Positions 4,553 through 43,957 of a DNA stretch of 64,000 bases are shown piece after piece. The notes under the pieces were generated by a model, which was not told where the DNA came from, ran no database searches, and was given only the letters and a program-made list of their open reading frames with translations. This stretch comes from a phage. The stretch lies in sequence record PZ019085.1. One strand, written 5' to 3'. Both the position numbers and the translations under genes were made by a program. Each line of letters starts with the position of its first letter. Position 1 is the first letter of the stretch.

Positions 4553-6135
4553 TATTTTACCTTAATGATATAGTTTAAAGAAATATTCCATGGGCGAGTT
4601 TCATTTCCAATTAATTCTGGACGATTCAGGGTATATTTAGAGTTACGCTGAGACGCTGGATCAATTTCATATCCATCGTTAGTAAAATACGAACGGTTAT
4701 CCCAGTCAAGTCCTTTACGAGTACCAACAAAGTTTGAACGACGAGTATTACCGAATGCTCCTGCATCGTCATGTTCACCAAAACCGCCAGCATGCTTATG
4801 ATATGACATTTGTTGTTTTTGCACTTCACCAACATATCCACCGGTACAACCGACCGCCAGACGAGGCTTACCGAATTGGTCATTACCATTAACATTAGGG
4901 TTAGTTAAATGGTTACCACGACCCGAGCCGCGAACAAATAATCCACGCATATCAGGCAAGCCTGGGTTAGAAGAGCTACCACCATATCGTGTCCCAATTC
5001 TGGAAGCATATACTGGGCATTCTGAAGCAGAAACGGTCCCACCGTGACAGAAGCGCCAGTCGGAACTCGGTAAACTATCCGCAGCCCACATTGTAATAGC
5101 GCCAACTGGAAGAATTCGGTCTAATTCATTTTGAGTCACAATACGATTGCCTTGAATATAACCACCGGACATATTGACATTACCAGTTATATTAGCGCCA
5201 CCAGAACCGACCGTCAACGTATTATTAATGCGAAGCGTGCCATTAATAGTTTGTCCGCCTCGTTGGTGGATAACATCGGCATTCCAAGCAAGGGCAGAAG
5301 AACCATCGCCACCTGATTGGCTACCCGCTTGTGTAGTTAAACGAACAACTCCACGTAAAGAAGTTGTAGCGCCACGCCCGTTTAATGTTGCACCGGTCAC
5401 TACAACTGAAGAGTTGTTACTATTTACTTCAGTCTGTGTCCCTAGTTTAACGACACCTTTATTAGTTTCTGATGCTACTGAATTCATAAAGGTATAAGGT
5501 GAAATTGCATAGCCTTCACGCAGGGTGCCTTGTTGTGCTTGAGCAACTGTAGCCAAACGAACAACACCTGTAATAGATTCGGTGGCGTCACTATTATTTG
5601 GAGCAATTTGCGAAATAAGTTTAATTGCTAATTGTTGCGTTTTTAACGGGGTCATTGCCGTTGTATCGTCAGAACCAGCTAATGCCGCGGCAGAAGTTGA
5701 AATTTTAATTACACCATTTGTTGCTTCTGTTGACACTTTTGTCTGAAATACATTGTCTATTTTTTGATTCAATTTAAGCGGAGTAATTGATGCATCGTCA
5801 ATAGCTCCGGTTACTGCTTCATCTTCAGTAGCATAACGAGTTAAGCCGTATTTGGTTTCGGTTGCATTAGGATATTGTAGACGAGCATTCAGTGATGCCG
5901 GAGTAACAGCTTTACTATTATCTAATCCATCAATAACTTCTTGTGGAGTAGCTATTTGAATAATTCCTGGTGTAGTAGTTGTTGCTTCCGGGACACCGTT
6001 AACACCTGAAGGAGAAATAGCAGCTAATGCGGCTTGGACATTAGTGATTGTATCTGGAAAATTCGACCCCGTAGGGTCGAATTCAACGTAAATTGATTCG
6101 TTTGAAACGTGTTGGTATGTATTGTTATTACTCAT
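4552..6135 (-). CDS. 12: short tail fibre (T4 gp12-like)
   Basis: 527-aa ORF; near-collinear with T4 gp12 incl. ...[24 protein letters not shown]... and C-terminal [24 protein letters not shown]. Confidence 0.9.
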
Positions 6136-27273: not shown

Positions 27274-27870
27274 ATGCGAAACCAAAATAATGATATTGAC
27301 TCAATGTTCGAAGAGTTCCGAAATAAGGTAAATCCACCTACGTCTTTAGTTGATTCATTACGATATGTTGCAACTGGACGTAAATGGTACTGGTCGTCTT
27401 CTTATGAGACCACTGAATATGCAAATCGCCGAAAATCTTTATTAGCCCCAGGTATTATGATTCATGATATCGGAGCTATTGCTAAACTAGTTGCAGACCA
27501 TGATATTAGATTCACCGATTTCGTTGCTCCTACGTGGTCTGTTTGTTGTTTAAACACTGAATTGGAATATATCAGCGAACGCTCTGAAGATTATTATGGT
27601 TTTAGAGATAAGCTTCTGAGGTCTAATATGTTTTATATCGATACAGAAGTTCTAGTCGATAATAAAAAATATTACTTTACGTTAATCGTCGATTCTGAAA
27701 CTATGTATGAAGGCAAGCCCTTGCTTAAAAGAGTTGATGCTTTAAGTGCTATTGATGCGCTTTATGAAACCATGATTGTTAGTCCTAATTTCACTAACAA
27801 TTTAATCCTTGAGCAATTTATTATGGAATGTAGAGAATATGTCAAAGCCAACCCTGTACATGCCAATTAA
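27274..27870 (+). CDS. hypothetical protein
   Basis: 198 aa from ATG 27274 (SD AAAGGAG). Confidence 0.6.
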   Translation: MRNQNNDIDSMFEEFRNKVNPPTSLVDSLRYVATGRKWYWSSSYETTEYANRRKSLLAPGIMIHDIGAIAKLVADHDIRFTDFVAPTWSVCCLNTELEYISERSEDYYGFRDKLLRSNMFYIDTEVLVDNKKYYFTLIVDSETMYEGKPLLKRVDALSAIDALYETMIVSPNFTNNLILEQFIMECREYVKANPVHAN

Positions 27871-28234
27871 GCCCTGGGCATACGAATACAAACGTAAATT
27901 AATCCCAAACGAAGTACTATTTGGCCCTATTTTAGCTTTAGCATTTTTAATCTTTATGATTATAGGAGCTATTTTAGATTCCAATAAAGTTATATCGTCT
28001 GATGCAGCGTTTTCATTAATGTTCGTCGCACCACTTATTGTACCATTTTTATTAATGCCTATTAACTGGGTGGGATATTGGTACCAAGGCCGTCATCACA
28101 GAGCCCGATTAAGAGAATGGAAAGTTCAGTGCGCAAAAGCCCAAGCTCAGTATGATGAAGCTGTTAAAAAGTATGAATATGAAGAAGCTATGGAATTCGT
28201 TAAGGAAATAAGATGCAAAAGCCTCAGCTCTTAA
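27839..28234 (+). CDS. membrane protein, C-terminal EFVKEIRCK motif family
   Basis: 131 aa; two predicted TM helices; C-terminus EAMEFVKEIRCKSLSS related to the C-termini of ORFs 28213, 30721 and 31714; alternative start 27860. Confidence 0.55.
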   Translation: MSKPTLYMPIKPWAYEYKRKLIPNEVLFGPILALAFLIFMIIGAILDSNKVISSDAAFSLMFVAPLIVPFLLMPINWVGYWYQGRHHRARLREWKVQCAKAQAQYDEAVKKYEYEEAMEFVKEIRCKSLSS

Positions 28235-28572
28235 CCGTACGGCCTTCTCTTGGTGAGAACATTCTAATTTTTATTATGAGTATTGGCATGGGATTTGCCT
28301 TTGGATTAGTTGGATTTCTTATTGACGGCGTTGTGTTAGGATTTATAGGGAACACTGGTGGATTCACAGACCAATGGCAGGACTTACGGTATACCCAAGC
28401 CTTTGCATCCATCGCATCATTTTGTACTGTAGTCTATTTTTACTACGATTTTATAAACCATAACAAGAAAAATAAAAAGGTTTACGCTTCTCAAATGGTT
28501 AGTTATAATGAACTTCTAGCTAAACGTGAAAATGAAACAATCGAAAACTTTATTAAGGAATGTAGAAAATGA
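28213..28572 (+). CDS. membrane protein, C-terminal ENFIKECRK motif family
   Basis: 119 aa; TM helices FIMSIGMGFAFGLVGFLIDGVVLGFIG; C-terminus ...NETIENFIKECRK. Confidence 0.6.
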   Translation: MQKPQLLTVRPSLGENILIFIMSIGMGFAFGLVGFLIDGVVLGFIGNTGGFTDQWQDLRYTQAFASIASFCTVVYFYYDFINHNKKNKKVYASQMVSYNELLAKRENETIENFIKECRK

Positions 28573-28874
28573 GTAAGATTATTGAAATTAAAGTACCAGA
28601 GTTTAATGATGCCAAATCCGCTTCAGATGCAATTTATAAACTTCTGAATCAAGCTGAACGTATCGAAGAAGAAGCAACAAAGATCGCAGACCAATATGCC
28701 GTATCATTTTCTGTAGGTGATTATGGTAGCGGTCGTACTTATTATCCTAAGGGTGAAATCGTATCCCAGTGGATGAAAAATGAAATTGAAAATAATGGTG
28801 GCGATGTTAAGCGTGAAGGTAATGGTTACGTTATTACTGAAGGTGCTTGGGTTTCGTCTTCTGCGTTGTGCTAA
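28569..28874 (+). CDS. small protein, GWVSSSxxC paralog 1
   Basis: 101 aa ending ...EGAWVSSSALC; shares GDYGSGRTYYPKGE-like motif and C-terminus with the next two ORFs. Confidence 0.6.
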   Translation: MSKIIEIKVPEFNDAKSASDAIYKLLNQAERIEEEATKIADQYAVSFSVGDYGSGRTYYPKGEIVSQWMKNEIENNGGDVKREGNGYVITEGAWVSSSALC

Positions 28875-28883
28875 GGAATCATT

Positions 28884-29156
28884 ATGTCTAAAGAACAAAC
28901 CGAACTGGCCGAAGCTGTAGCAAAAATCTATGCAGCTATTGAGGCTGCCAAAGAAATTGCTGATAAACAAAACACAACATTCGATTTGTATCCAGCTTAT
29001 GGTATGGGTGGAACCTATCATTCACCCGGACAGCTTAAAGCCGATCTTGAACGTTGTACAAAAAACGGCTATGCTGAATGGGCCGACGTTTACCAATACG
29101 ACTACAACCTGAGCCTTGAAGATGGCGGTTGGGTTGCATCTTCTCACACTTGCTAA
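28884..29156 (+). CDS. small protein, GWVSSSxxC paralog 2
   Basis: 90 aa ending ...DGGWVASSHTC; internal YGMGGTYHSPGQ. Confidence 0.6.
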   Translation: MSKEQTELAEAVAKIYAAIEAAKEIADKQNTTFDLYPAYGMGGTYHSPGQLKADLERCTKNGYAEWADVYQYDYNLSLEDGGWVASSHTC

Positions 29157-29165
29157 GGAAACAAT

Positions 29166-29363
29166 ATGTCTCGTGAATTAGATTGTGCTGTACGTACCGC
29201 AGTAGCTGCCCTGGAAAACCTGTTCCAAATTGCAACAGAAGAACGCGAAGAAGTTACATTGTGGATTGAAGATAACGCAGGTCTGAATCTCCAGAACGCG
29301 ATCTCATTATCCAACAATAGTATCACTGTTCAAGGCTGGGTATCATCTAGTTATTCTTGCTAA
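29166..29363 (+). CDS. small protein, GWVSSSxxC paralog 3
   Basis: 65 aa ending ...VQGWVSSSYSC. Confidence 0.55.
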   Translation: MSRELDCAVRTAVAALENLFQIATEEREEVTLWIEDNAGLNLQNAISLSNNSITVQGWVSSSYSC

Positions 29364-29367
29364 AACA

Positions 29368-29406
29368 GTTTACAACAAGATAGGGCTATGTTATAGTAGT
29401 CCTATC
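29368..29406 (+). promoter_or_regulatory. early promoter with inverted repeat (PeSL-like cassette)
   Basis: GTTTACAACAAGATAGGGCTATGTTATAGTAGTCCTATC; about 90% identical to the copy at 22607. Confidence 0.55.
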
Positions 29407-29425
29407 AAATTAAACGGAGTCCACA

Positions 29426-29665
29426 ATGATTTATTACGAAAGTATTGGAACCGAAGTGGTTGCTAAAACCATTACTCGTGAAAAGTTTGCAAAGATATTC
29501 GATATGCGTTATAAAAAATCTGAACACAAAGGCATCCGATTTGAAGATGCACACTGCACAATTTGCCCTTATAATGAAGACATAAACGGTACAATCGTTC
29601 CATTGGTAGAGGCTTCACATGATGACCTCTGGGATGAATATGATATCGCATGTCGTGAAATTTAA
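29426..29665 (+). CDS. hypothetical protein
   Basis: 79-aa ORF; Cys/His pair ...HCTICPYNED... Confidence 0.55.
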   Translation: MIYYESIGTEVVAKTITREKFAKIFDMRYKKSEHKGIRFEDAHCTICPYNEDINGTIVPLVEASHDDLWDEYDIACREI

Positions 29666-29693
29666 GTTAATGAATTAATCCGAGGAAAATATT

Positions 29694-30650
29694 ATGATGT
29701 TAGTTATTGGTTCTCGTGCACTTCACTATCATGGTCTTATTGATTCTAGCGCTATCAAAAATAGCGATTGGGACTTTATTGCGGACCAAGGTTCTTGGAA
29801 TGCATTCAAAAATCAAATGATGGGTGTATATGTTCACCAAGATAACCCTGATGTCCAAGTTTTCAAATGCTTCCATAATGGACGCGAAACTCATTTTGAA
29901 GCATATATTGTTCCGGCAATCACTAATGTCCGTGAATTAGTCGGTGAACTCACTCCTGAAGATTTCACGTCTTCTTATGACCTTTTAAAATACGCCAAGA
30001 AAAATTTGACTAAAGATCGTTTGACCGGGTTTTACTGGGCAACTCCTGAGATATGTCTTGCAATTAAAATGTCTCATCGTTTCAAGAAAAATAATCCATT
30101 CTTTTTAAAGACTATGAACCATATTCAGTATCTTCGTGGTAAAGGTGTTACACTGAACGATGAACTTACTGAAATTATGCTGAAACGCCAGAAAGAAACC
30201 TTGAATTATGCTCACCCAGTTCTTGACACTTCTAAAAGTGCGTTCTTTAAAGATGACATCTATACATATGACCATGATACTATTCATGAAGCCATTGCAC
30301 TAACAGACCGCCCAGCGTATACATTTTATATGAAAGATGGTTCTGAAGTCATGACCTCACGCGAGAAGTTCGAATCATTACCGGAAATGGTCAAATTGGC
30401 CGGTGTATACGAAGAATCATGTGTACTAGCGTTAGAACGTTCTCAGATTCCTAATGACTTTAAAATTAACCCTGAAGCCAGTTTTATGATGGCATTGGAA
30501 AAAGTCTGTACAAGCATCACCTCTGGTTGGTTCCGTGAATACGCCTGGGAAAACTACAGCAAAGTAGTAAGTATGTACCAAAGCTTAGGACATGATGATT
30601 ACGTTAAACGTTTCAAACAAAATTTCCATATGGTAAAACCTTTCAAATAA
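29694..30650 (+). CDS. putative nucleotidyltransferase-fold protein
   Basis: 318 aa; N-terminal hhhGS...x14...SDWDF (MMLVIGSRALHYHG...NSDWDFIA) resembles the Pol-beta superfamily GS / DxD active-site pattern; remainder helical. Confidence 0.5.
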   Translation: MMLVIGSRALHYHGLIDSSAIKNSDWDFIADQGSWNAFKNQMMGVYVHQDNPDVQVFKCFHNGRETHFEAYIVPAITNVRELVGELTPEDFTSSYDLLKYAKKNLTKDRLTGFYWATPEICLAIKMSHRFKKNNPFFLKTMNHIQYLRGKGVTLNDELTEIMLKRQKETLNYAHPVLDTSKSAFFKDDIYTYDHDTIHEAIALTDRPAYTFYMKDGSEVMTSREKFESLPEMVKLAGVYEESCVLALERSQIPNDFKINPEASFMMALEKVCTSITSGWFREYAWENYSKVVSMYQSLGHDDYVKRFKQNFHMVKPFK

Positions 30651-30662
30651 TTTCGCAAAACT

Positions 30663-30700
30663 GTTTACACAATTATAGGACTATGTTATAGTAGTCCTAT
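30663..30700 (+). promoter_or_regulatory. early promoter with inverted repeat (PeSL-like cassette)
   Basis: GTTTACACAATTATAGGACTATGTTATAGTAGTCCTAT. Confidence 0.55.
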
Positions 30701-30720
30701 TAAAACATGAGGAGAATATT

Positions 30721-31026
30721 ATGAAATTAACAGAAACCAATCTAATCGGTCTTTTAACAATATTTGCATCACCTTTTTACGCAGCCCTTTCTGTTGCAGT
30801 ATTACAAAAGGCTTACGATATGGATGGTGTTCCTGGTTTTGTATTCTTATCACCATTTTTATTATTCGTCGGAGCATTGTTATTATATGCCACGACTAGT
30901 TTCGACCATAACGTCTGGGTCAATTATAAATGCAAATTGTCTGAAGAAGAACACGCAGAAGCTCGTAAAAAAGCTATTGAATCTACCAATCTAGAAAATT
31001 TCATTAAAGAATGTCGAGGAAAATAA
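30721..31026 (+). CDS. membrane protein, C-terminal ENFIKECRGK motif family
   Basis: 101 aa; two TM helices; C-terminus ...ESTNLENFIKECRGK. Confidence 0.6.
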   Translation: MKLTETNLIGLLTIFASPFYAALSVAVLQKAYDMDGVPGFVFLSPFLLFVGALLLYATTSFDHNVWVNYKCKLSEEEHAEARKKAIESTNLENFIKECRGK

Positions 31027-31027
31027 T

Positions 31028-31714
31028 ATGAATAGTTCTAAAGTGTTTAATAGCCAAGCTCGTGCAGTAGGTGGTTTTGCTGGTAAAATTTCTAATGATA
31101 AAATCAAAAACGAAACTATGTTCTTCAACAGCTCATTGGCTTTCGCTTTTGATAATGGTGGCCCAATTACTCGTAGCTTCATCATGAACTTGCCGGATGA
31201 TTGGAACACTGACCAGGTTGTATTTGATTCACGAGTCCACATGCTGATGCCTGGTTGGTATCCTGCTATTCCTGGATATCACCATGATGACGTACCACGT
31301 CCTGATATTCCAGTTGGTCAACACTTTATTACTGCAGGACAACCTGATTATGACAATCCTCGTTACCATTCTGAACATATTCTTGGTCTTGTTAACGCTG
31401 ATGTGTGTCCTACTCATTTTGCAACAGGAACTGCAGAGTTCAGTCAGATTCCTGATGGCGAACTTATCTATCGTCAGTGGCACAAAGAAGTCCTCGAAAA
31501 AATTGAAAAAGGTGAACTAGAGAAATGGGAAGCTCCAGATCGTACTCTTCTTCAGTTTGATTGGCAAACATGGCACACTGGTTCTCGTGCAATTAGTAAT
31601 GGATGGCGTTGGTTCGGACGTGTATCTCGTAATACAGACCGAGTTAAAAAGATTACCAATGAAATTCGTGTCAATGCCCAAGTTTATCTGGAATTCCCTA
31701 TGGAAGGCTGGTAA
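31028..31714 (+). CDS. hypothetical protein with His/Asp-rich motifs
   Basis: 228 aa; GWYPAIPGYHHDD and CPTHFATG motifs, Trp-rich C-terminus; no family recognised. Confidence 0.6.
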   Translation: MNSSKVFNSQARAVGGFAGKISNDKIKNETMFFNSSLAFAFDNGGPITRSFIMNLPDDWNTDQVVFDSRVHMLMPGWYPAIPGYHHDDVPRPDIPVGQHFITAGQPDYDNPRYHSEHILGLVNADVCPTHFATGTAEFSQIPDGELIYRQWHKEVLEKIEKGELEKWEAPDRTLLQFDWQTWHTGSRAISNGWRWFGRVSRNTDRVKKITNEIRVNAQVYLEFPMEGW

Positions 31715-32205
31715 TGATTAACAAAACATATTGGTCTAATATAGACGATGACAATGAAGGTATTTCATACTATTCAGTAGATTGGACAGGATGTCCATCC
31801 TACTTAGTGAAAAATATTTGCCAAGAATTTAAAATCGACCAGCCAGCAGGTATTATCGTGAACAGATACATTAATGGATATCAACCTATCGATGAAGTAA
31901 TACGAACAACTCAAGCTGAGCTTGAAAAGTTTTTCAATAAGTGCCAATGGATAACAGGATGGATTATATTTGTACCGTCTATATGGTTTTTCAGCACTAA
32001 GGTGAGTTCTTTCGGTTTTGTTGATATTATTGCTATCTTATTAGCATCTAGTATCATAAGTGTTGTTGGTGGCATCATTGGTGGCGGTACTGCAGCCATC
32101 ATTATTAATCTTGTTAAAAGTAGTTTACAGGAACGTAAAGACAAGATAAAGGCCAAGAATAATGAAGTTGAACGTTTTATTACCGAATGCAGGAATTTGA
32201 GATGA
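31714..32205 (+). CDS. membrane protein, C-terminal ERFITECR motif family
   Basis: 163 aa; TM segments WIIFVPSIWFF and IIAILLASSIISVVGGIIGGGTAAIII; C-terminus ...NNEVERFITECRNLR. Confidence 0.6.
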   Translation: MINKTYWSNIDDDNEGISYYSVDWTGCPSYLVKNICQEFKIDQPAGIIVNRYINGYQPIDEVIRTTQAELEKFFNKCQWITGWIIFVPSIWFFSTKVSSFGFVDIIAILLASSIISVVGGIIGGGTAAIIINLVKSSLQERKDKIKAKNNEVERFITECRNLR

Positions 32206-42497: not shown

Positions 42498-42971
42498 ATG
42501 ATTATCAATGAAAACTCTTGGCACTTTAAAATTTATGCCATGTTCAATAGTACATGGCATCGTCCGAAAACGTTGTGTGCTTATTTTTGGAAAACGTTAA
42601 TCCCAGTATTGGCTGTTTCAATTATTGGATTTGCTATTTTAGCAGCAGTCGTAATCATTGGCCAGGAATTTTTAACTAGATTCTTTGTTTTTAGCAGTCT
42701 ATGGACATTAGTTCCGGCCTCAATTGGCGTAGGCATTTTAATGGTAGCAGTCATGGCTTTTATTGCTACCGGGTTGGTAATTGGCCCGTCTTGGTTGTTA
42801 GACAAATATAACGACAGAAAATATTATAAAGAAATTGAGCTCATTGCACAAAACCAAGAACGAATTAAAAATGGACTTGAGCCTATTGAACGTAAGAAAT
42901 CATTAATAGGTGAATACCTTAAAGCTCGTAAAGAAAAAATCTGTCCTACTCTTGAATATAAGGCTAAATGA
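42498..42971 (+). CDS. integral membrane protein, hypothetical
   Basis: 157 aa with about three hydrophobic helices (LIPVLAVSIIGFAILAAVVII, VFSSLWTLVPASIGVGILMVAVMAFIATGLVI). Confidence 0.6.
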   Translation: MIINENSWHFKIYAMFNSTWHRPKTLCAYFWKTLIPVLAVSIIGFAILAAVVIIGQEFLTRFFVFSSLWTLVPASIGVGILMVAVMAFIATGLVIGPSWLLDKYNDRKYYKEIELIAQNQERIKNGLEPIERKKSLIGEYLKARKEKICPTLEYKAK

Positions 42972-43957
42972 TGAAAACAATTATGAAAGGCTACTTTGGT
43001 AGTCACCTTTATGGAATGTCTACTCCTGAATCCGACGTCGATTTTAAAGAAATTTATGTCCCTCATGCTCGTGATATTTTGACCGGTAACGTTAAAGAAC
43101 ATATGAGCAAGAACACGAATAACACATCTTCTAAGAACACAAAAGACGACGTGGACCACGAGTTGTATAGTCTCAAATATTTCTTTAAACTAGCTGCAGA
43201 TGGTGAAACCGTCGCATTAGATATGCTTCACACTCCACCAGGTTTAGTAGTTAAATCTGATTTGCCTGACGTGTGGAAGTATATTCAAGATAACAGGTCT
43301 CGTTTCTATACCACTAACATGAAATCTTATTTAGGGTATGTCCGTAAGCAAGCTTCTAAATATGGTGTCAAGGGTTCTCGACTGGCTGTTCTTCGTCAAG
43401 CCCTTAAACGTTCTAATGAATGGGGACAATACTTTGATAATGGTGCAGTAATTCGTTTATCACATATGAAGAATGTTCTGCCTGTAGGTGAATTTGCTTC
43501 ATGGGTTGAAACCGAAAACGAGAAAACAGGTAAGCAAACATTCTATAATCTGTTAGACCGTAAATTCCAAGACACATTAACCAATAAAGAGTTCAATGCC
43601 ATCCTTGTTAAACTAGAAGAGAACTATGGCGAACGTGCTCGTAAGGCAGAAGCTAACGAAGGTATTGACTGGAAAGCATTGAGTCATGCATGTCGTGGTG
43701 GACTTCAATTATTGGAAATTTACAAAACAGGCGACCTGGTTTACCCACTTCAGGATGCTCCGTTTATTCTCGATGTTAAGCTTGGTAAACATACGTTTAA
43801 AACTGTACAAGAATTCCTAGAAGATATCGTTGACCAAGTTGAACATGCGTCAGAACAAGCTGCCAAGAACGGTATGCAACAAAAAGTAGATATGAGTTTC
43901 TGGGATGACTTCCTTGAACAAGTCTATCTCGAAAATCATAATTCTTACTATAAATAA
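42968..43957 (+). CDS. putative nucleotidyltransferase (Pol-beta superfamily motif)
   Basis: 329 aa; N-terminal GSHLYGMSTPESDVDF fits the G[SG]x9-13Dx[DE] nucleotidyltransferase signature; ATGA overlap with the upstream membrane protein gene. Confidence 0.6.
   Translation: MMKTIMKGYFGSHLYGMSTPESDVDFKEIYVPHARDILTGNVKEHMSKNTNNTSSKNTKDDVDHELYSLKYFFKLAADGETVALDMLHTPPGLVVKSDLPDVWKYIQDNRSRFYTTNMKSYLGYVRKQASKYGVKGSRLAVLRQALKRSNEWGQYFDNGAVIRLSHMKNVLPVGEFASWVETENEKTGKQTFYNLLDRKFQDTLTNKEFNAILVKLEENYGERARKAEANEGIDWKALSHACRGGLQLLEIYKTGDLVYPLQDAPFILDVKLGKHTFKTVQEFLEDIVDQVEHASEQAAKNGMQQKVDMSFWDDFLEQVYLENHNSYYK

What the first reader, a model, noticed from the sequence alone, without database searches (positions are those of the whole stretch)
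29694..30650. Second nucleotidyltransferase-like protein in the nudE-proximal block
The 318-aa protein starts MMLVIGSRALHYHG...NSDWDFIA, a spacing that fits the GS / DxD core of Pol-beta-type nucleotidyltransferases, followed by a long helical domain. It is unrelated in sequence to the 42968 protein. Two distinct nucleotidyltransferase-like genes in one early region are notable.
Basis: inference. Interest (0 to 1): 0.5.

Follow-up and report, generated by a model that had tools for sequence, protein, structure and literature searches.

The report
Phage nucleotidyltransferase with tagged small-protein partners
The gene very probably does encode a nucleotide-transferring enzyme, of an uncharacterised family found almost only in phages, and it is nearly always preceded by genes for small acidic proteins that all end in the same tail (Trp-x-Ser-Ser-Ser-x-x-Cys), which suggests an undescribed enzyme-plus-partner system.

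Summary
The ORF at 29694-30650 (+) is real. It encodes 318 aa and is the homologue of RB69ORF134c; the window is an RB69-like Mosigvirus.

- A confident AlphaFold model (pLDDT 92) puts G6-S7, D25-x-D27 and E69 on the elements where Pol-beta-type nucleotidyltransferases (NTases) carry them.
- These residues are 92-100% conserved in 261 diverged homologues.

By sequence it belongs only to Pfam DUF7277 + DUF7275. The helical C-terminal domain has no solved relative and is the most conserved part. The family is large (1,583 clusters at 50% identity; 734 of 50,697 phage genomes) and almost absent from cellular genomes.

New here: the gene is the downstream member of a conserved cassette. One to four small acidic proteins (about 90 aa, PHROG 899/4882) that end in W-x-S-S-S-x-x-C lie upstream on the same strand in 25 of 26 diverged lineages. 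In the window they are at 28569-29363. Searches that started from the small proteins led back to the enzyme in 7 of 7 and at least 26 of 28 cases.

Best reading: an active NTase whose dedicated partners, probably substrates, are these tails. The substrate is inferred, not shown. The main rival is a MenT-like RNA-end transferase regulated by the small proteins.

The parts
29694..30650 (+). NTase gene (318 aa; homologue of RB69ORF134c; Pfam DUF7277 + DUF7275; PHROG 2141)
   Evidence: ORF and translation. Pfam and PHROG. 98% nt identity to RB69-like phages. AlphaFold model with pLDDT 92. NTase structural matches.
29697..29996 (+). N-terminal catalytic lobe (aa 2-101, DUF7277), the Pol-beta-type NTase core
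   Evidence: Pfam DUF7277, E 1e-27. In the model, strand 2-5 is followed by a helix that begins at G6-S7; D25/D27 lie on strand 25-31 and E69 on strand 64-73. This is the canonical placement of the hG[GS], [DE]h[DE]h and h[DE]h motifs (established knowledge of the superfamily).
29709..29714 (+). Codons for G6-S7 (hG[GS] motif)
   Evidence: Conserved in 99% and 97% of 261 homologues.
29766..29774 (+). Codons for D25-W-D27 (metal-binding [DE]h[DE] motif)
   Evidence: Conserved in 99% and 100% of 261 homologues. Also kept in the trimmed actinophage homologues.
29898..29900 (+). Codon for E69 (candidate third catalytic carboxylate)
   Evidence: E in 92% and D in 5% of 261 homologues. It lies in the middle of strand 64-73.
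30051..30608 (+). C-terminal helical lobe (aa 120-305, DUF7275), the most conserved part, with no solved structural relative
28569..28874 (+). Small acidic partner protein 1 (101 aa, PHROG 899), ending ...GAWVSSSALC
   Evidence: ORF. PHROG 899, E 2e-22. Member of the family found upstream of the NTase gene in 25 of 26 lineages.
28884..29156 (+). Small acidic partner protein 2 (90 aa, PHROG 899), with a YGMGGTY motif, ending ...GGWVASSHTC
   Evidence: ORF. PHROG 899, E 1e-18. Alignment A3.
29166..29363 (+). Small partner protein 3 (65 aa, PHROG 4882), ending ...QGWVSSSYSC
   Evidence: ORF. PHROG 4882. These three tandem ORFs are the only ones in the 64-kb window that end with the tail motif.

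Best explanation
The 318-aa protein is a catalytically competent, two-lobed nucleotidyltransferase (NTase) of the DNA-polymerase-beta superfamily. The N-lobe should bind Mg2+ and the NTP through G6-S7, D25, D27 and E69. The unusually conserved helical C-lobe (K125, H128, K139, H194-D195, H198, E240-E241, E248-R249 and others) should close the active-site cleft and define the acceptor.

The enzyme is the downstream gene of a phage-specific cassette. The upstream genes encode one to four diversified small acidic proteins whose only invariant feature is a C-terminal tail, W-x-S-S-S-x-x-Cys-COOH. The proposed mechanism is that this tail docks in the cleft and the enzyme transfers an NMP from an NTP onto a tail serine hydroxyl. 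The variable bodies would then be a set of early phage effectors sharing one enzyme-written tag.

Shown here: the fold, the conserved motifs, the phage restriction and the two-way genomic linkage. Inferred: catalytic activity, that the tail is what the enzyme recognises, the serine acceptor, the nucleotide used, and the biological role.
For: Fold and motifs:
- The AlphaFold model has pLDDT 92 and pTM 0.85.
- Foldseek gives 5uvd (E 6e-4) and MenT1 (E 2e-3), both at probability 1.0.
- The GS / DxD / E residues are 92-100% conserved in 261 homologues.

Linkage, starting from the enzyme:
- In 93 loci forming 26 lineages at 60% identity (T4-like phages, 340-370 kb jumbo phages and about 148-kb gut phages), a small-protein family defined by BLAST alone lies 1 to 6 genes upstream in 65 loci and 15 lineages. 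No other neighbour family is found in more than 5 lineages.
- ORFs ending in the tail occur in 82 of 93 loci and 21 of 26 lineages with a strict pattern, and in 25 of 26 with a relaxed one.
- 182 of the 189 tail ORFs are upstream on the same strand.
- 86 of 88 unique members of the BLAST-defined family end in Cys.
- On the opposite strand only 5 of 11,882 stop-to-stop segments carry the motif.

Linkage, starting from the small proteins:
- Seven of 7 small-protein homologues found by an independent profile search have a DUF7275 gene no more than 1 kb downstream, in otherwise unrelated contexts.
- A DNA pattern for the tail, run on all viral contigs without reference to the enzyme, gave 28 real ORFs. 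At least 26 of them lie on contigs that carry the enzyme.
- T4 lacks both genes at the syntenic site.

Partner-linked residues: actinophage homologues have no tail protein. They keep the core residues but have lost R129, R165, Y172, H174, C272, S277 and R281.

Only the tail is invariant across the small proteins (W, S, S, C). That is the pattern expected of a recognition or acceptor element.

Precedent (established knowledge): Pol-beta-fold enzymes that nucleotidylylate proteins include MntA acting on HepT, GlnE, GlnD and DrrA.
Against: - No biochemical data exist for any family member, and no paper was found.
- The closest structures, the MenT toxins, act on tRNA 3' ends, not on proteins (PMC10435456, PMC7450476).
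- A small gene upstream of an NTase gene is also the antitoxin-toxin gene order of the MenA-MenT and AbiEi-AbiEii systems. The small proteins could therefore be regulators rather than substrates.
- Known protein-modifying Pol-beta NTases mostly target tyrosine, not serine.
- Partner-less actinophage homologues exist, so the enzyme can function without tail proteins. One of them lies between RNA ligase and polynucleotide kinase genes.
Confidence: 0.4

Rival explanations
1. It is a MenT-like RNA 3'-end (tRNA) nucleotidyltransferase used for host shut-off or RNA repair. The upstream small proteins would be inhibitors or specificity regulators (antitoxin-like, perhaps pseudo-substrates) rather than substrates.
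For: - The best structural matches are the tRNA-modifying toxins MenT1, MenT3 and MenT4.
- The order small gene then NTase gene matches the MenA-MenT and AbiEi-AbiEii order (PMC10435456, PMC7450476).
- Some loci have RNA-repair genes nearby: in Streptomyces phage Circinus the homologue lies between RNA ligase, polynucleotide kinase and RNA ligase genes; the jumbo-phage lineage has Rnl1 and PNKP about 4 kb upstream; L100 has an RNA ligase 3 kb downstream.
- Partner-less homologues show that the enzyme has a function independent of the tail proteins.
Against: - tRNA genes lie within 6 kb in only 5 of 34 representative loci, and PNKP in only 2 of 26 lineages. The small proteins are present in 25 of 26.
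- One to four diversified paralogues sharing only an invariant tail is unusual for an antitoxin.
- No match to DUF1814/AbiEii (PF08843) even at E<=10 in 36 members.
- The phage already carries an RNA-repair NTase, RlaP.
- The family's median pI is about 6.2, so it is not markedly basic.
Confidence: 0.25
2. It is a small-molecule nucleotidyltransferase of the ANT/Lnu kind that modifies a hydroxyl on a metabolite, antibiotic or signalling molecule. The small proteins would be functionally separate neighbours or accessory factors.
Against: It does not explain the near-obligatory, same-strand, two-way linkage to proteins carrying an invariant tail. No sequence match to ANT or Lnu families. The C-lobe has no structural counterpart in those enzymes.
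Confidence: 0.1
3. The protein is a catalytically inactive scaffold, or the linkage to the small proteins is inherited gene order with no functional meaning.
For: There are no experimental data. Many of the loci are T4-like phages with conserved gene order.
Against: The catalytic residues are 92-100% conserved over 261 homologues down to about 40% identity. The linkage holds in unrelated phage backbones where no other neighbour is conserved: Phapecoctavirus, Pseudomonas phage SYP, jumbo phages, and contigs with gp32/gp59 or PolB/RecA/DnaB neighbours. T4 lacks both genes at the same site.
Confidence: 0.07
4. It is a cyclic-oligonucleotide or second-messenger synthase (CD-NTase/cGAS-like).
For: It has a Pol-beta-type NTase core. 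In one locus an Acb1-family gene lies directly downstream.
Against: No CD-NTase, cGAS or OAS structure is among the significant matches; OAS1 has Foldseek probability 0.15. No PADLOC or Pfam hit to such families.
Confidence: 0.03

Closest known systems
MenT / AbiEii (DUF1814) nucleotidyltransferase toxins (MenT1 8an4, MenT3/TglT 6j7n, MenT4 6y56)
   Different: No sequence-level match to PF08843. About 190 residues of the C-lobe have no counterpart. The family is phage-restricted rather than chromosomal toxin-antitoxin loci. The upstream genes are one to four paralogues of a different family with an invariant W-x-SSS-xx-C tail. Neither toxicity nor tRNA activity has been tested.
MntA-HepT (MNT-HEPN) type VII toxin-antitoxin systems
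   Same: A Pol-beta-fold NTase encoded next to a small protein that it covalently (poly)AMPylates near that protein's conserved C-terminal motif. This is the best functional analogy for the proposed mechanism (established knowledge).
   Different: The partner here is not a HEPN protein (no Rx4-6H motif). The predicted acceptor is Ser rather than Tyr. The enzyme is much larger than a minimal NTase. Partners occur as arrays of paralogues. The context is a phage early region rather than a toxin-antitoxin locus.
ANT(2'')-Ia / LnuA antibiotic nucleotidyltransferases
   Different: No sequence similarity, a different C-lobe, and no dedicated protein partner.
RlaP (PF10127), the other NTase of this window at 42968-43957 (T4 nrdC.11 homologue)
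   Same: A Pol-beta-superfamily NTase encoded in the early region of T4-like phages.
   Different: Unrelated in sequence beyond the DxD motif. RlaP associates with RNA ligases (PMC7824862). It is present in T4, whereas the DUF7277/DUF7275 gene is not.
GlnE / GlnD / DrrA protein adenylyl- and uridylyl-transferases, and CitX/MdcG holo-ACP synthases
   Same: Pol-beta-fold enzymes that attach a nucleotide or nucleotide-like group to a hydroxyl of a specific protein. For CitX/MdcG the acceptor is a Ser of a small acidic carrier protein. This is recalled knowledge, not tested here.
   Different: None appears among the structural or sequence matches. The analogy is by mechanism only.

Membership tests
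DNA polymerase beta-like nucleotidyltransferase superfamily | Core alpha/beta fold with a mixed beta-sheet, recognisable by structure comparison | tested here: met
DNA polymerase beta-like nucleotidyltransferase superfamily | hG[GS] motif at the junction of strand 1 and the following helix | tested here: met
   The sequence is V-I-G6-S7. Strand 2-5 is followed by helix 6-12. Conserved in 99% and 97% of homologues.
DNA polymerase beta-like nucleotidyltransferase superfamily | [DE]h[DE]h metal-binding motif on strand 2, plus a third carboxylate (h[DE]h) on a neighbouring strand | tested here: met
   D25-W-D27-F lies on strand 25-31 and F-E69-A on strand 64-73. Conservation is 99%, 100% and 92% (plus 5% Asp). 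The spacing from GS to DxD is 17 residues, longer than the textbook 9-13.
DNA polymerase beta-like nucleotidyltransferase superfamily | Nucleotidyl-transfer activity | not testable with these tools
   Needs an enzyme assay.
MenT / AbiEii (DUF1814, PF08843) | Sequence membership in PF08843, including its family-specific C-terminal motifs III and IV | tested here: not met
   No PF08843 hit at E<=10 in any of 36 members. A profile search of PDB sequences found nothing. The similarity is at fold level only.
MenT / AbiEii (DUF1814, PF08843) | Growth-inhibiting toxin neutralised by a cognate upstream antitoxin, with tRNA 3'-end extension | not testable with these tools
   Upstream small genes exist but belong to a different family. 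Toxicity and tRNA activity are untested.
Pfam DUF7277 + DUF7275 (PHROG 2141) | Scores above the curated thresholds for both domains, in that order | tested here: met
   DUF7277 97 bits and DUF7275 265 bits against a cut-off of 27. PHROG 2141, E 3e-150.
CD-NTase / cGAS-like cyclic-oligonucleotide synthases | Structural or sequence similarity to CD-NTases | tested here: not met
HD-domain phosphohydrolase (considered for the C-lobe because of H128, H194-D195 and H198) | HD-domain fold | tested here: not met
NTase plus tail-protein cassette (defined here) | At least one small ORF ending W-x(0-3)-S-[SAT]-x(1-4)-C-stop, upstream on the same strand as a DUF7275 gene | tested here: met
   In the window, three ORFs at 28569-29363 lie 331 nt or more upstream of the NTase start. 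Found in 25 of 26 lineages. Reverse tests gave 7 of 7 and at least 26 of 28.

The most novel reading that the evidence does not exclude
The cassette is a phage-specific protein-modification system of a kind not yet described. One dedicated Pol-beta-fold enzyme, with a new helical domain, writes a nucleotide-derived mark on the invariant W-x-S-S-S-x-x-Cys tail of an array of fast-diversifying small acidic early proteins. Because three serines sit just before a terminal cysteine, further chemistry is conceivable, such as elimination of nucleotidylated Ser to dehydroalanine followed by thioether closure with the cysteine. The mark would activate, target or protect these host-takeover or anti-defence effectors.
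Probability: 0.3. Interest if true: 0.85.

Novelty: new variant of a known kind. Interest (0 to 1): 0.62.

Why it matters
The family occurs in about 1.4% of sequenced phage genomes (734 of 50,697). These include well-studied relatives of model phages (RB69, Aeromonas phage 31) and therapeutic-candidate phages of E. coli, Klebsiella, Acinetobacter and Pseudomonas. Every member is annotated as hypothetical or DUF, apart from one GenBank record that calls it 'nucleotidyltransferase' and a few evidently spurious structural labels.

Showing that it is an intact NTase tied to a dedicated set of tail-tagged small proteins turns two unknown-function families (PHROG 2141 and PHROG 899/4882) into one testable hypothesis. 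The experiment is cheap: co-express the proteins and measure the mass of the small protein.

If the tail is nucleotidylated, this would be a new viral post-translational modification and a handle on a whole class of diversified early phage proteins. If instead the enzyme is a MenT-like tRNA modifier held in check by the small proteins, it would be a phage-borne counterpart of a bacterial toxin-antitoxin and abortive-infection module.

Tried and rejected
- **Sequence links to known NTase families.** Pfam at E<=10 on 36 members, NCBIfam, PADLOC, and PDB sequence searches with a single sequence and with a profile found only DUF7277/DUF7275 and noise.
- **hhalign against the window's RlaP protein.** It aligned only the 9-residue DxD stretch, which is not significant.
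- **A conserved third gene.** The 101-aa and 228-aa ORFs downstream in the window (30721-31026, 31028-31714) are lineage-specific and unrelated to similar-sized neighbours in other phages. Metallophos, a DNA-methyltransferase-like protein, SIR2 and PNKP each occur in 5 or fewer of 26 lineages.
- **Linkage to tRNA genes.** Rejected; tRNA genes are nearby in only 5 of 34 loci.
- **A role in the RB69 arabinosyl-5-hydroxycytosine DNA-modification pathway.** A term search of that paper found no 'ORF134', and the gene does not appear in the part of the pathway gene table that was displayed (PMC13326640).
- **Cellular homologues.** Only 5 hits in 185,579 species genomes. All are metagenome-assembled contigs, and at least four carry the tail ORF as well, so they are probably phage DNA.
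- **Promoter and terminator scan of 27800-31200.** Counts are not above shuffled controls, so no operon boundaries can be claimed.
- **Literature.** No paper mentions the DUFs, the PHROGs or the RB69 ORF.
- **AFDB Foldseek library.** Unavailable.
Full report
**1. What is there**

The window is an RB69-like T4-type phage (genus Mosigvirus). The 957-bp stretch is 98% identical at nucleotide level to many such phages, and the protein is 100% identical to that of phage NHEP29. It corresponds to RB69ORF134c, annotated as hypothetical.

It lies in a block between the homologues of T4 genes e.3 and e.2. In T4 those two genes are adjacent, and T4 has no homologue of the enzyme in its syntenic 25-kb region.

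**2. Is it a nucleotidyltransferase?**

By sequence it matches only two Pfam domains of unknown function and one PHROG:
- DUF7277, aa 2-101, E 1e-27
- DUF7275, aa 120-305, E 5e-79
- PHROG 2141, function unknown

NCBIfam, PADLOC and PDB sequence searches, with a single sequence and with a profile, gave nothing meaningful. Scanning 36 diverse members against Pfam at E<=10 gave no known nucleotidyltransferase (NTase) family.

Structure prediction with a 36-sequence alignment gave a confident model (pLDDT 92, pTM 0.85).
- Foldseek agreed: 5uvd at E 6e-4 and MenT1 at E 2e-3, both at probability 1.0.

The motif residues lie where the superfamily has them. Strand 2-5 runs into G6-S7 at the start of a helix. 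D25 and D27 are on strand 25-31, and E69 is on strand 64-73. In 261 homologues reaching down to about 40% identity, conservation is G6 99%, S7 97%, D25 99%, D27 100%, and E69 92% with Asp in a further 5%.

**3. The C-terminal lobe**

This is the most conserved part of the protein. K125, H128, K139, R165, H194, D195, H198, E240, E241, E248, R249, K270, S274, S277, G278 and R281 are kept in 99-100% of the 261 homologues.

**4. Distribution**

A full HMMER scan of 1.84 billion cluster representatives found 1,583 clusters at E<=1e-3, and the top-ranked hits are about 300 aa with both domains. tblastn finds the family in 734 of 50,697 phage genomes. Hosts include Escherichia, Acinetobacter, Aeromonas, Pseudomonas, Vibrio, Gordonia and Streptomyces.

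Only 5 loci were found in one genome each of 185,579 bacterial and archaeal species. All five are metagenome-assembled contigs. At least four of them also carry the small tail ORFs described below, so they are probably phage DNA.

Nearly all annotations are 'hypothetical protein'. One GenBank record (Pseudomonas phage vB_PpS_SYP) labels the gene 'nucleotidyltransferase', and a few records carry structural labels such as 'baseplate hub subunit' and 'prohead assembly scaffold protein' that look spurious. No paper in the searchable library mentions the DUFs, the PHROGs or the RB69 ORF.

**5. The surroundings: a conserved cassette**

I collected 93 loci: the window, RB69, 80 viral contigs, 5 genome contigs and 6 metagenome loci. 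I called ORFs and clustered all 2,337 neighbouring proteins by BLAST. At 60% identity the enzymes fall into 26 lineages.

One neighbour family stands out. A small protein of about 90 aa lies 1 to 6 genes upstream in 65 loci and 15 lineages. No other family occurs in more than 5 lineages.

Its members have an N-terminal helix, often an F-x-F...YG(M/S)GGTYYP motif, and an acidic variable linker. All end with G-x-W-x-S-S-S-x-x-C, with Cys as the last residue. Within this BLAST-defined family, where no motif was used for selection, 86 of 88 unique members end in Cys and 85 fit the tail pattern. In a 20-sequence alignment the only invariant positions are the start Met and the tail W, S and C.

A six-frame search for stop-terminated frames ending in the tail gave the following:
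- 82 of 93 loci and 21 of 26 lineages with a strict pattern, and 25 of 26 with a relaxed pattern.
- 182 of 189 hits are upstream on the enzyme's strand.
- Among the 77 loci where an upstream start codon could be assigned there are one to four copies, and the median gap to the enzyme is 345 nt.
- Only 5 of 11,882 opposite-strand segments carry the motif, and at least some of those are real family members in inverted orientation.

The 157 unique small proteins found this way have a median length of 89 aa and a median pI of 4.4. BLAST connects 150 of them into one family. They match PHROG 899 or 4882 (function unknown) and no Pfam family.

In the window there are three tandem paralogues, and they are the only ORFs in all 64 kb that end with the motif:
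- 28569-28874, ending ...GAWVSSSALC
- 28884-29156, ending ...GGWVASSHTC
- 29166-29363, ending ...QGWVSSSYSC

**6. Reverse tests**

*Profile search.* A profile of 20 small proteins retrieved 80 database proteins. I looked up seven that lie on long contigs. All seven have a DUF7275 gene no more than 1 kb downstream, and four are directly adjacent with gaps of 29-55 nt. The other genes around them are unrelated: gp59/gp32 in one, PolB/RecA/DnaB in another, PhoH/HNH in a third. Three of the seven belong to one jumbo-phage lineage.

*Pattern search without reference to the enzyme.* A DNA pattern for G-W-x-S-S-S-x-x-C-TAA, run on all 2.9 million viral contigs, gave 32 matches, of which 28 are real ORFs of at least 67 aa.
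- 18 have the enzyme downstream within the stored stretch.
- 8 more lie on contigs already known to carry it, where the stored stretch was too short.
- 2 lie in stretches with at least 2.3 kb of downstream sequence and no NTase (L106, L117); whether their contigs carry it elsewhere is unknown.

Against a background of about 1.4% of phage genomes carrying the enzyme, this is a very strong two-way association.

The cassette is also present in isolated phages of other families. Phapecoctavirus nieznany has three tail ORFs directly upstream of the enzyme. Pseudomonas phage SYP has two.

**7. An informative exception**

Actinophage homologues (Streptomyces phage Circinus gp181, 248 aa; Gordonia phage Yvonnetastic gp16, 260 aa) have no tail ORFs nearby.
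- They keep DUF7275.
- Their N-lobe is trimmed: it retains GS and DxD but lacks the strands that carry E69.
- They retain K125, H128, K139, H194, D195, H198, E240, E241, E248 and R249.
- They have lost R129, R165, Y172, H174, C272, S277 and R281, all of which are at least 95% conserved in the main family.

I read the lost residues as candidate contacts for the partner or tail. This is an inference.

**8. Mechanism**

*Shown:* a Pol-beta-type NTase fold with an intact, conserved catalytic set; a novel, extremely conserved second lobe; phage restriction; an obligate-looking cassette with tail-bearing small proteins.

*Inferred:* the enzyme transfers an NMP from an NTP to a hydroxyl group. The acceptor is the Ser-Ser(-Ser) of the invariant tail, which docks between the two lobes. 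The diversified acidic bodies are early effectors that share this enzyme-written tag.

*Reasons for the inference:*
- Only the tail is invariant while the bodies diverge.
- Arrays of paralogues are served by a single enzyme.
- The enzyme's extreme conservation matches an equally conserved acceptor.
- Specific enzyme residues are lost together with the partner in the actinophage homologues.
- Pol-beta-fold protein nucleotidyltransferases are known: MntA on HepT, GlnE, GlnD and DrrA (recalled knowledge).

I put about 0.85 on 'active Pol-beta-type NTase', about 0.8 on 'functionally coupled to the tail proteins', and about 0.4 on the full statement with the tail as substrate.

**9. Rivals**

*MenT-like RNA-end transferase.* This is the most serious rival: the small proteins would be antitoxin-like regulators or pseudo-substrates.
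- For: the MenT toxins are the closest structures and extend tRNA 3' ends (PMC10435456, PMC7450476), and the gene order matches those systems. A few loci have RNA ligase or PNK genes nearby.
- Against: tRNA genes lie within 6 kb in only 5 of 34 loci, and PNKP in 2 of 26 lineages. Arrays of diversified 'antitoxins' sharing only a tail would be unusual. The phage already has an RNA-repair NTase, RlaP, at 42968-43957.

*Other readings.* Small-molecule (ANT/Lnu-like), cyclic-nucleotide synthase and inert-scaffold readings are less likely.

**10. Comparison with what is known, and novelty**

The protein works like, and belongs to, the Pol-beta NTase superfamily; all structural and motif criteria are met. 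It is not a member of DUF1814/MenT/AbiEii, of the ANT/Lnu families, of RlaP or of the CD-NTases by sequence. Its C-lobe is new.

The cassette with W-x-SSS-xx-C tail proteins was not found in any paper or family description I could search. I rate it a new variant of a known kind. It would move towards a new kind of system if tail modification is demonstrated.

**11. Limits**

- Lineages were defined by 60% identity and are not phylogenetically independent in a strict sense.
- The enzyme-blind pattern search samples only TCN serine codons and TAA stops.

Noticed in passing
window 27809-28234, 28213-28572, 30721-31026, 31714-32205 (all +): Four predicted membrane proteins around the cassette (homologues of T4 e.4, e.3 and e.2, and RB69ORF133c) share a C-terminal motif: ...EFVKEIRCKSLSS, ...NFIKECRK, ...NFIKECRGK and ...RFITECRNLR. 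They look like a second paralogous family with a conserved tail in the same block.
   Followed up: no
L001 (RB69 NC_004928) 4875-5181, compared with window 28569-28874: In the RB69 reference the first small tail protein is split into ORF139c (71 aa, ending ...VSQWYEK) and ORF138c. The window has one intact 101-aa ORF ending ...WVSSSALC. The reference probably carries a frameshift or sequencing error.
   Followed up: partly
window 42968-43957 (+): The 'first' NTase named in the finding is an RlaP-family (PF10127) RNA-repair-associated Pol-beta NTase, the counterpart of T4 nrdC.11. It is unrelated in sequence to the 29694 protein.
   Followed up: yes
L095 5747-6076 (Streptomyces phage Circinus gp182); L096 4859-5221 and 5218-5679 (Gordonia phage Yvonnetastic gp17, gp18): In the actinophages that lack tail ORFs, the genes directly downstream of the DUF7275 homologue encode related acidic proteins with an internal motif: ...GWRASHDGSYLDG..., ...GWYASYEGGSLDG... 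and ...GYYESWSGGAWDG.... This faintly recalls the G-W-x-[AS]-S tail. They could be a displaced or extended version of the partner.
   Followed up: no
L100 6304-6765 and 3036-3371: In one 136-kb metagenomic phage contig an Acb1-family (anti-CBASS nuclease) gene lies directly downstream of the NTase. A tmRNA-like gene and three tRNAs lie 1-2 kb upstream.
   Followed up: no
L002 7195-7974 and 11501-12295; L005 1506-2243; L093 1534-2277; L089 7159-7875: Metallophos (calcineurin-like phosphoesterase, or 'Ser/Thr phosphatase') genes recur within a few kb of the cassette in 4 of 26 lineages. One of these could be a candidate eraser of a phosphodiester-linked mark, but the association is weak.
   Followed up: partly
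window 29369-29397 and 30664-30692 (+): Two identical promoter-like sites (TTTACA, 17 nt spacer, TATAGT, with an extended -10 TG) lie just before the 79-aa ORF that precedes the NTase gene and just after the NTase gene. They resemble T4 early promoters, but the number of promoter-like sites in the region is not above shuffled controls.
   Followed up: partly
L135/L091 (contig IMGVR_UViG_3300046519_000060), L106, L117: A 67-68-aa subfamily of tail proteins ending ...GWQSSSYNC lies without an NTase gene nearby (none within 2.3 kb in L106 or 4.5 kb in L117); the L135 copy is on a contig that carries the NTase, at an undetermined distance. Not every tail protein is therefore adjacent to the enzyme.
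   Followed up: partly
window 31028-31714 (+): The 228-aa protein two genes downstream (RB69ORF132c, PHROG 1843, no Pfam hit) is conserved with the cassette only within the enterobacterial T4-like lineages. It has a GYHHDD motif, and its function is unknown.
   Followed up: partly
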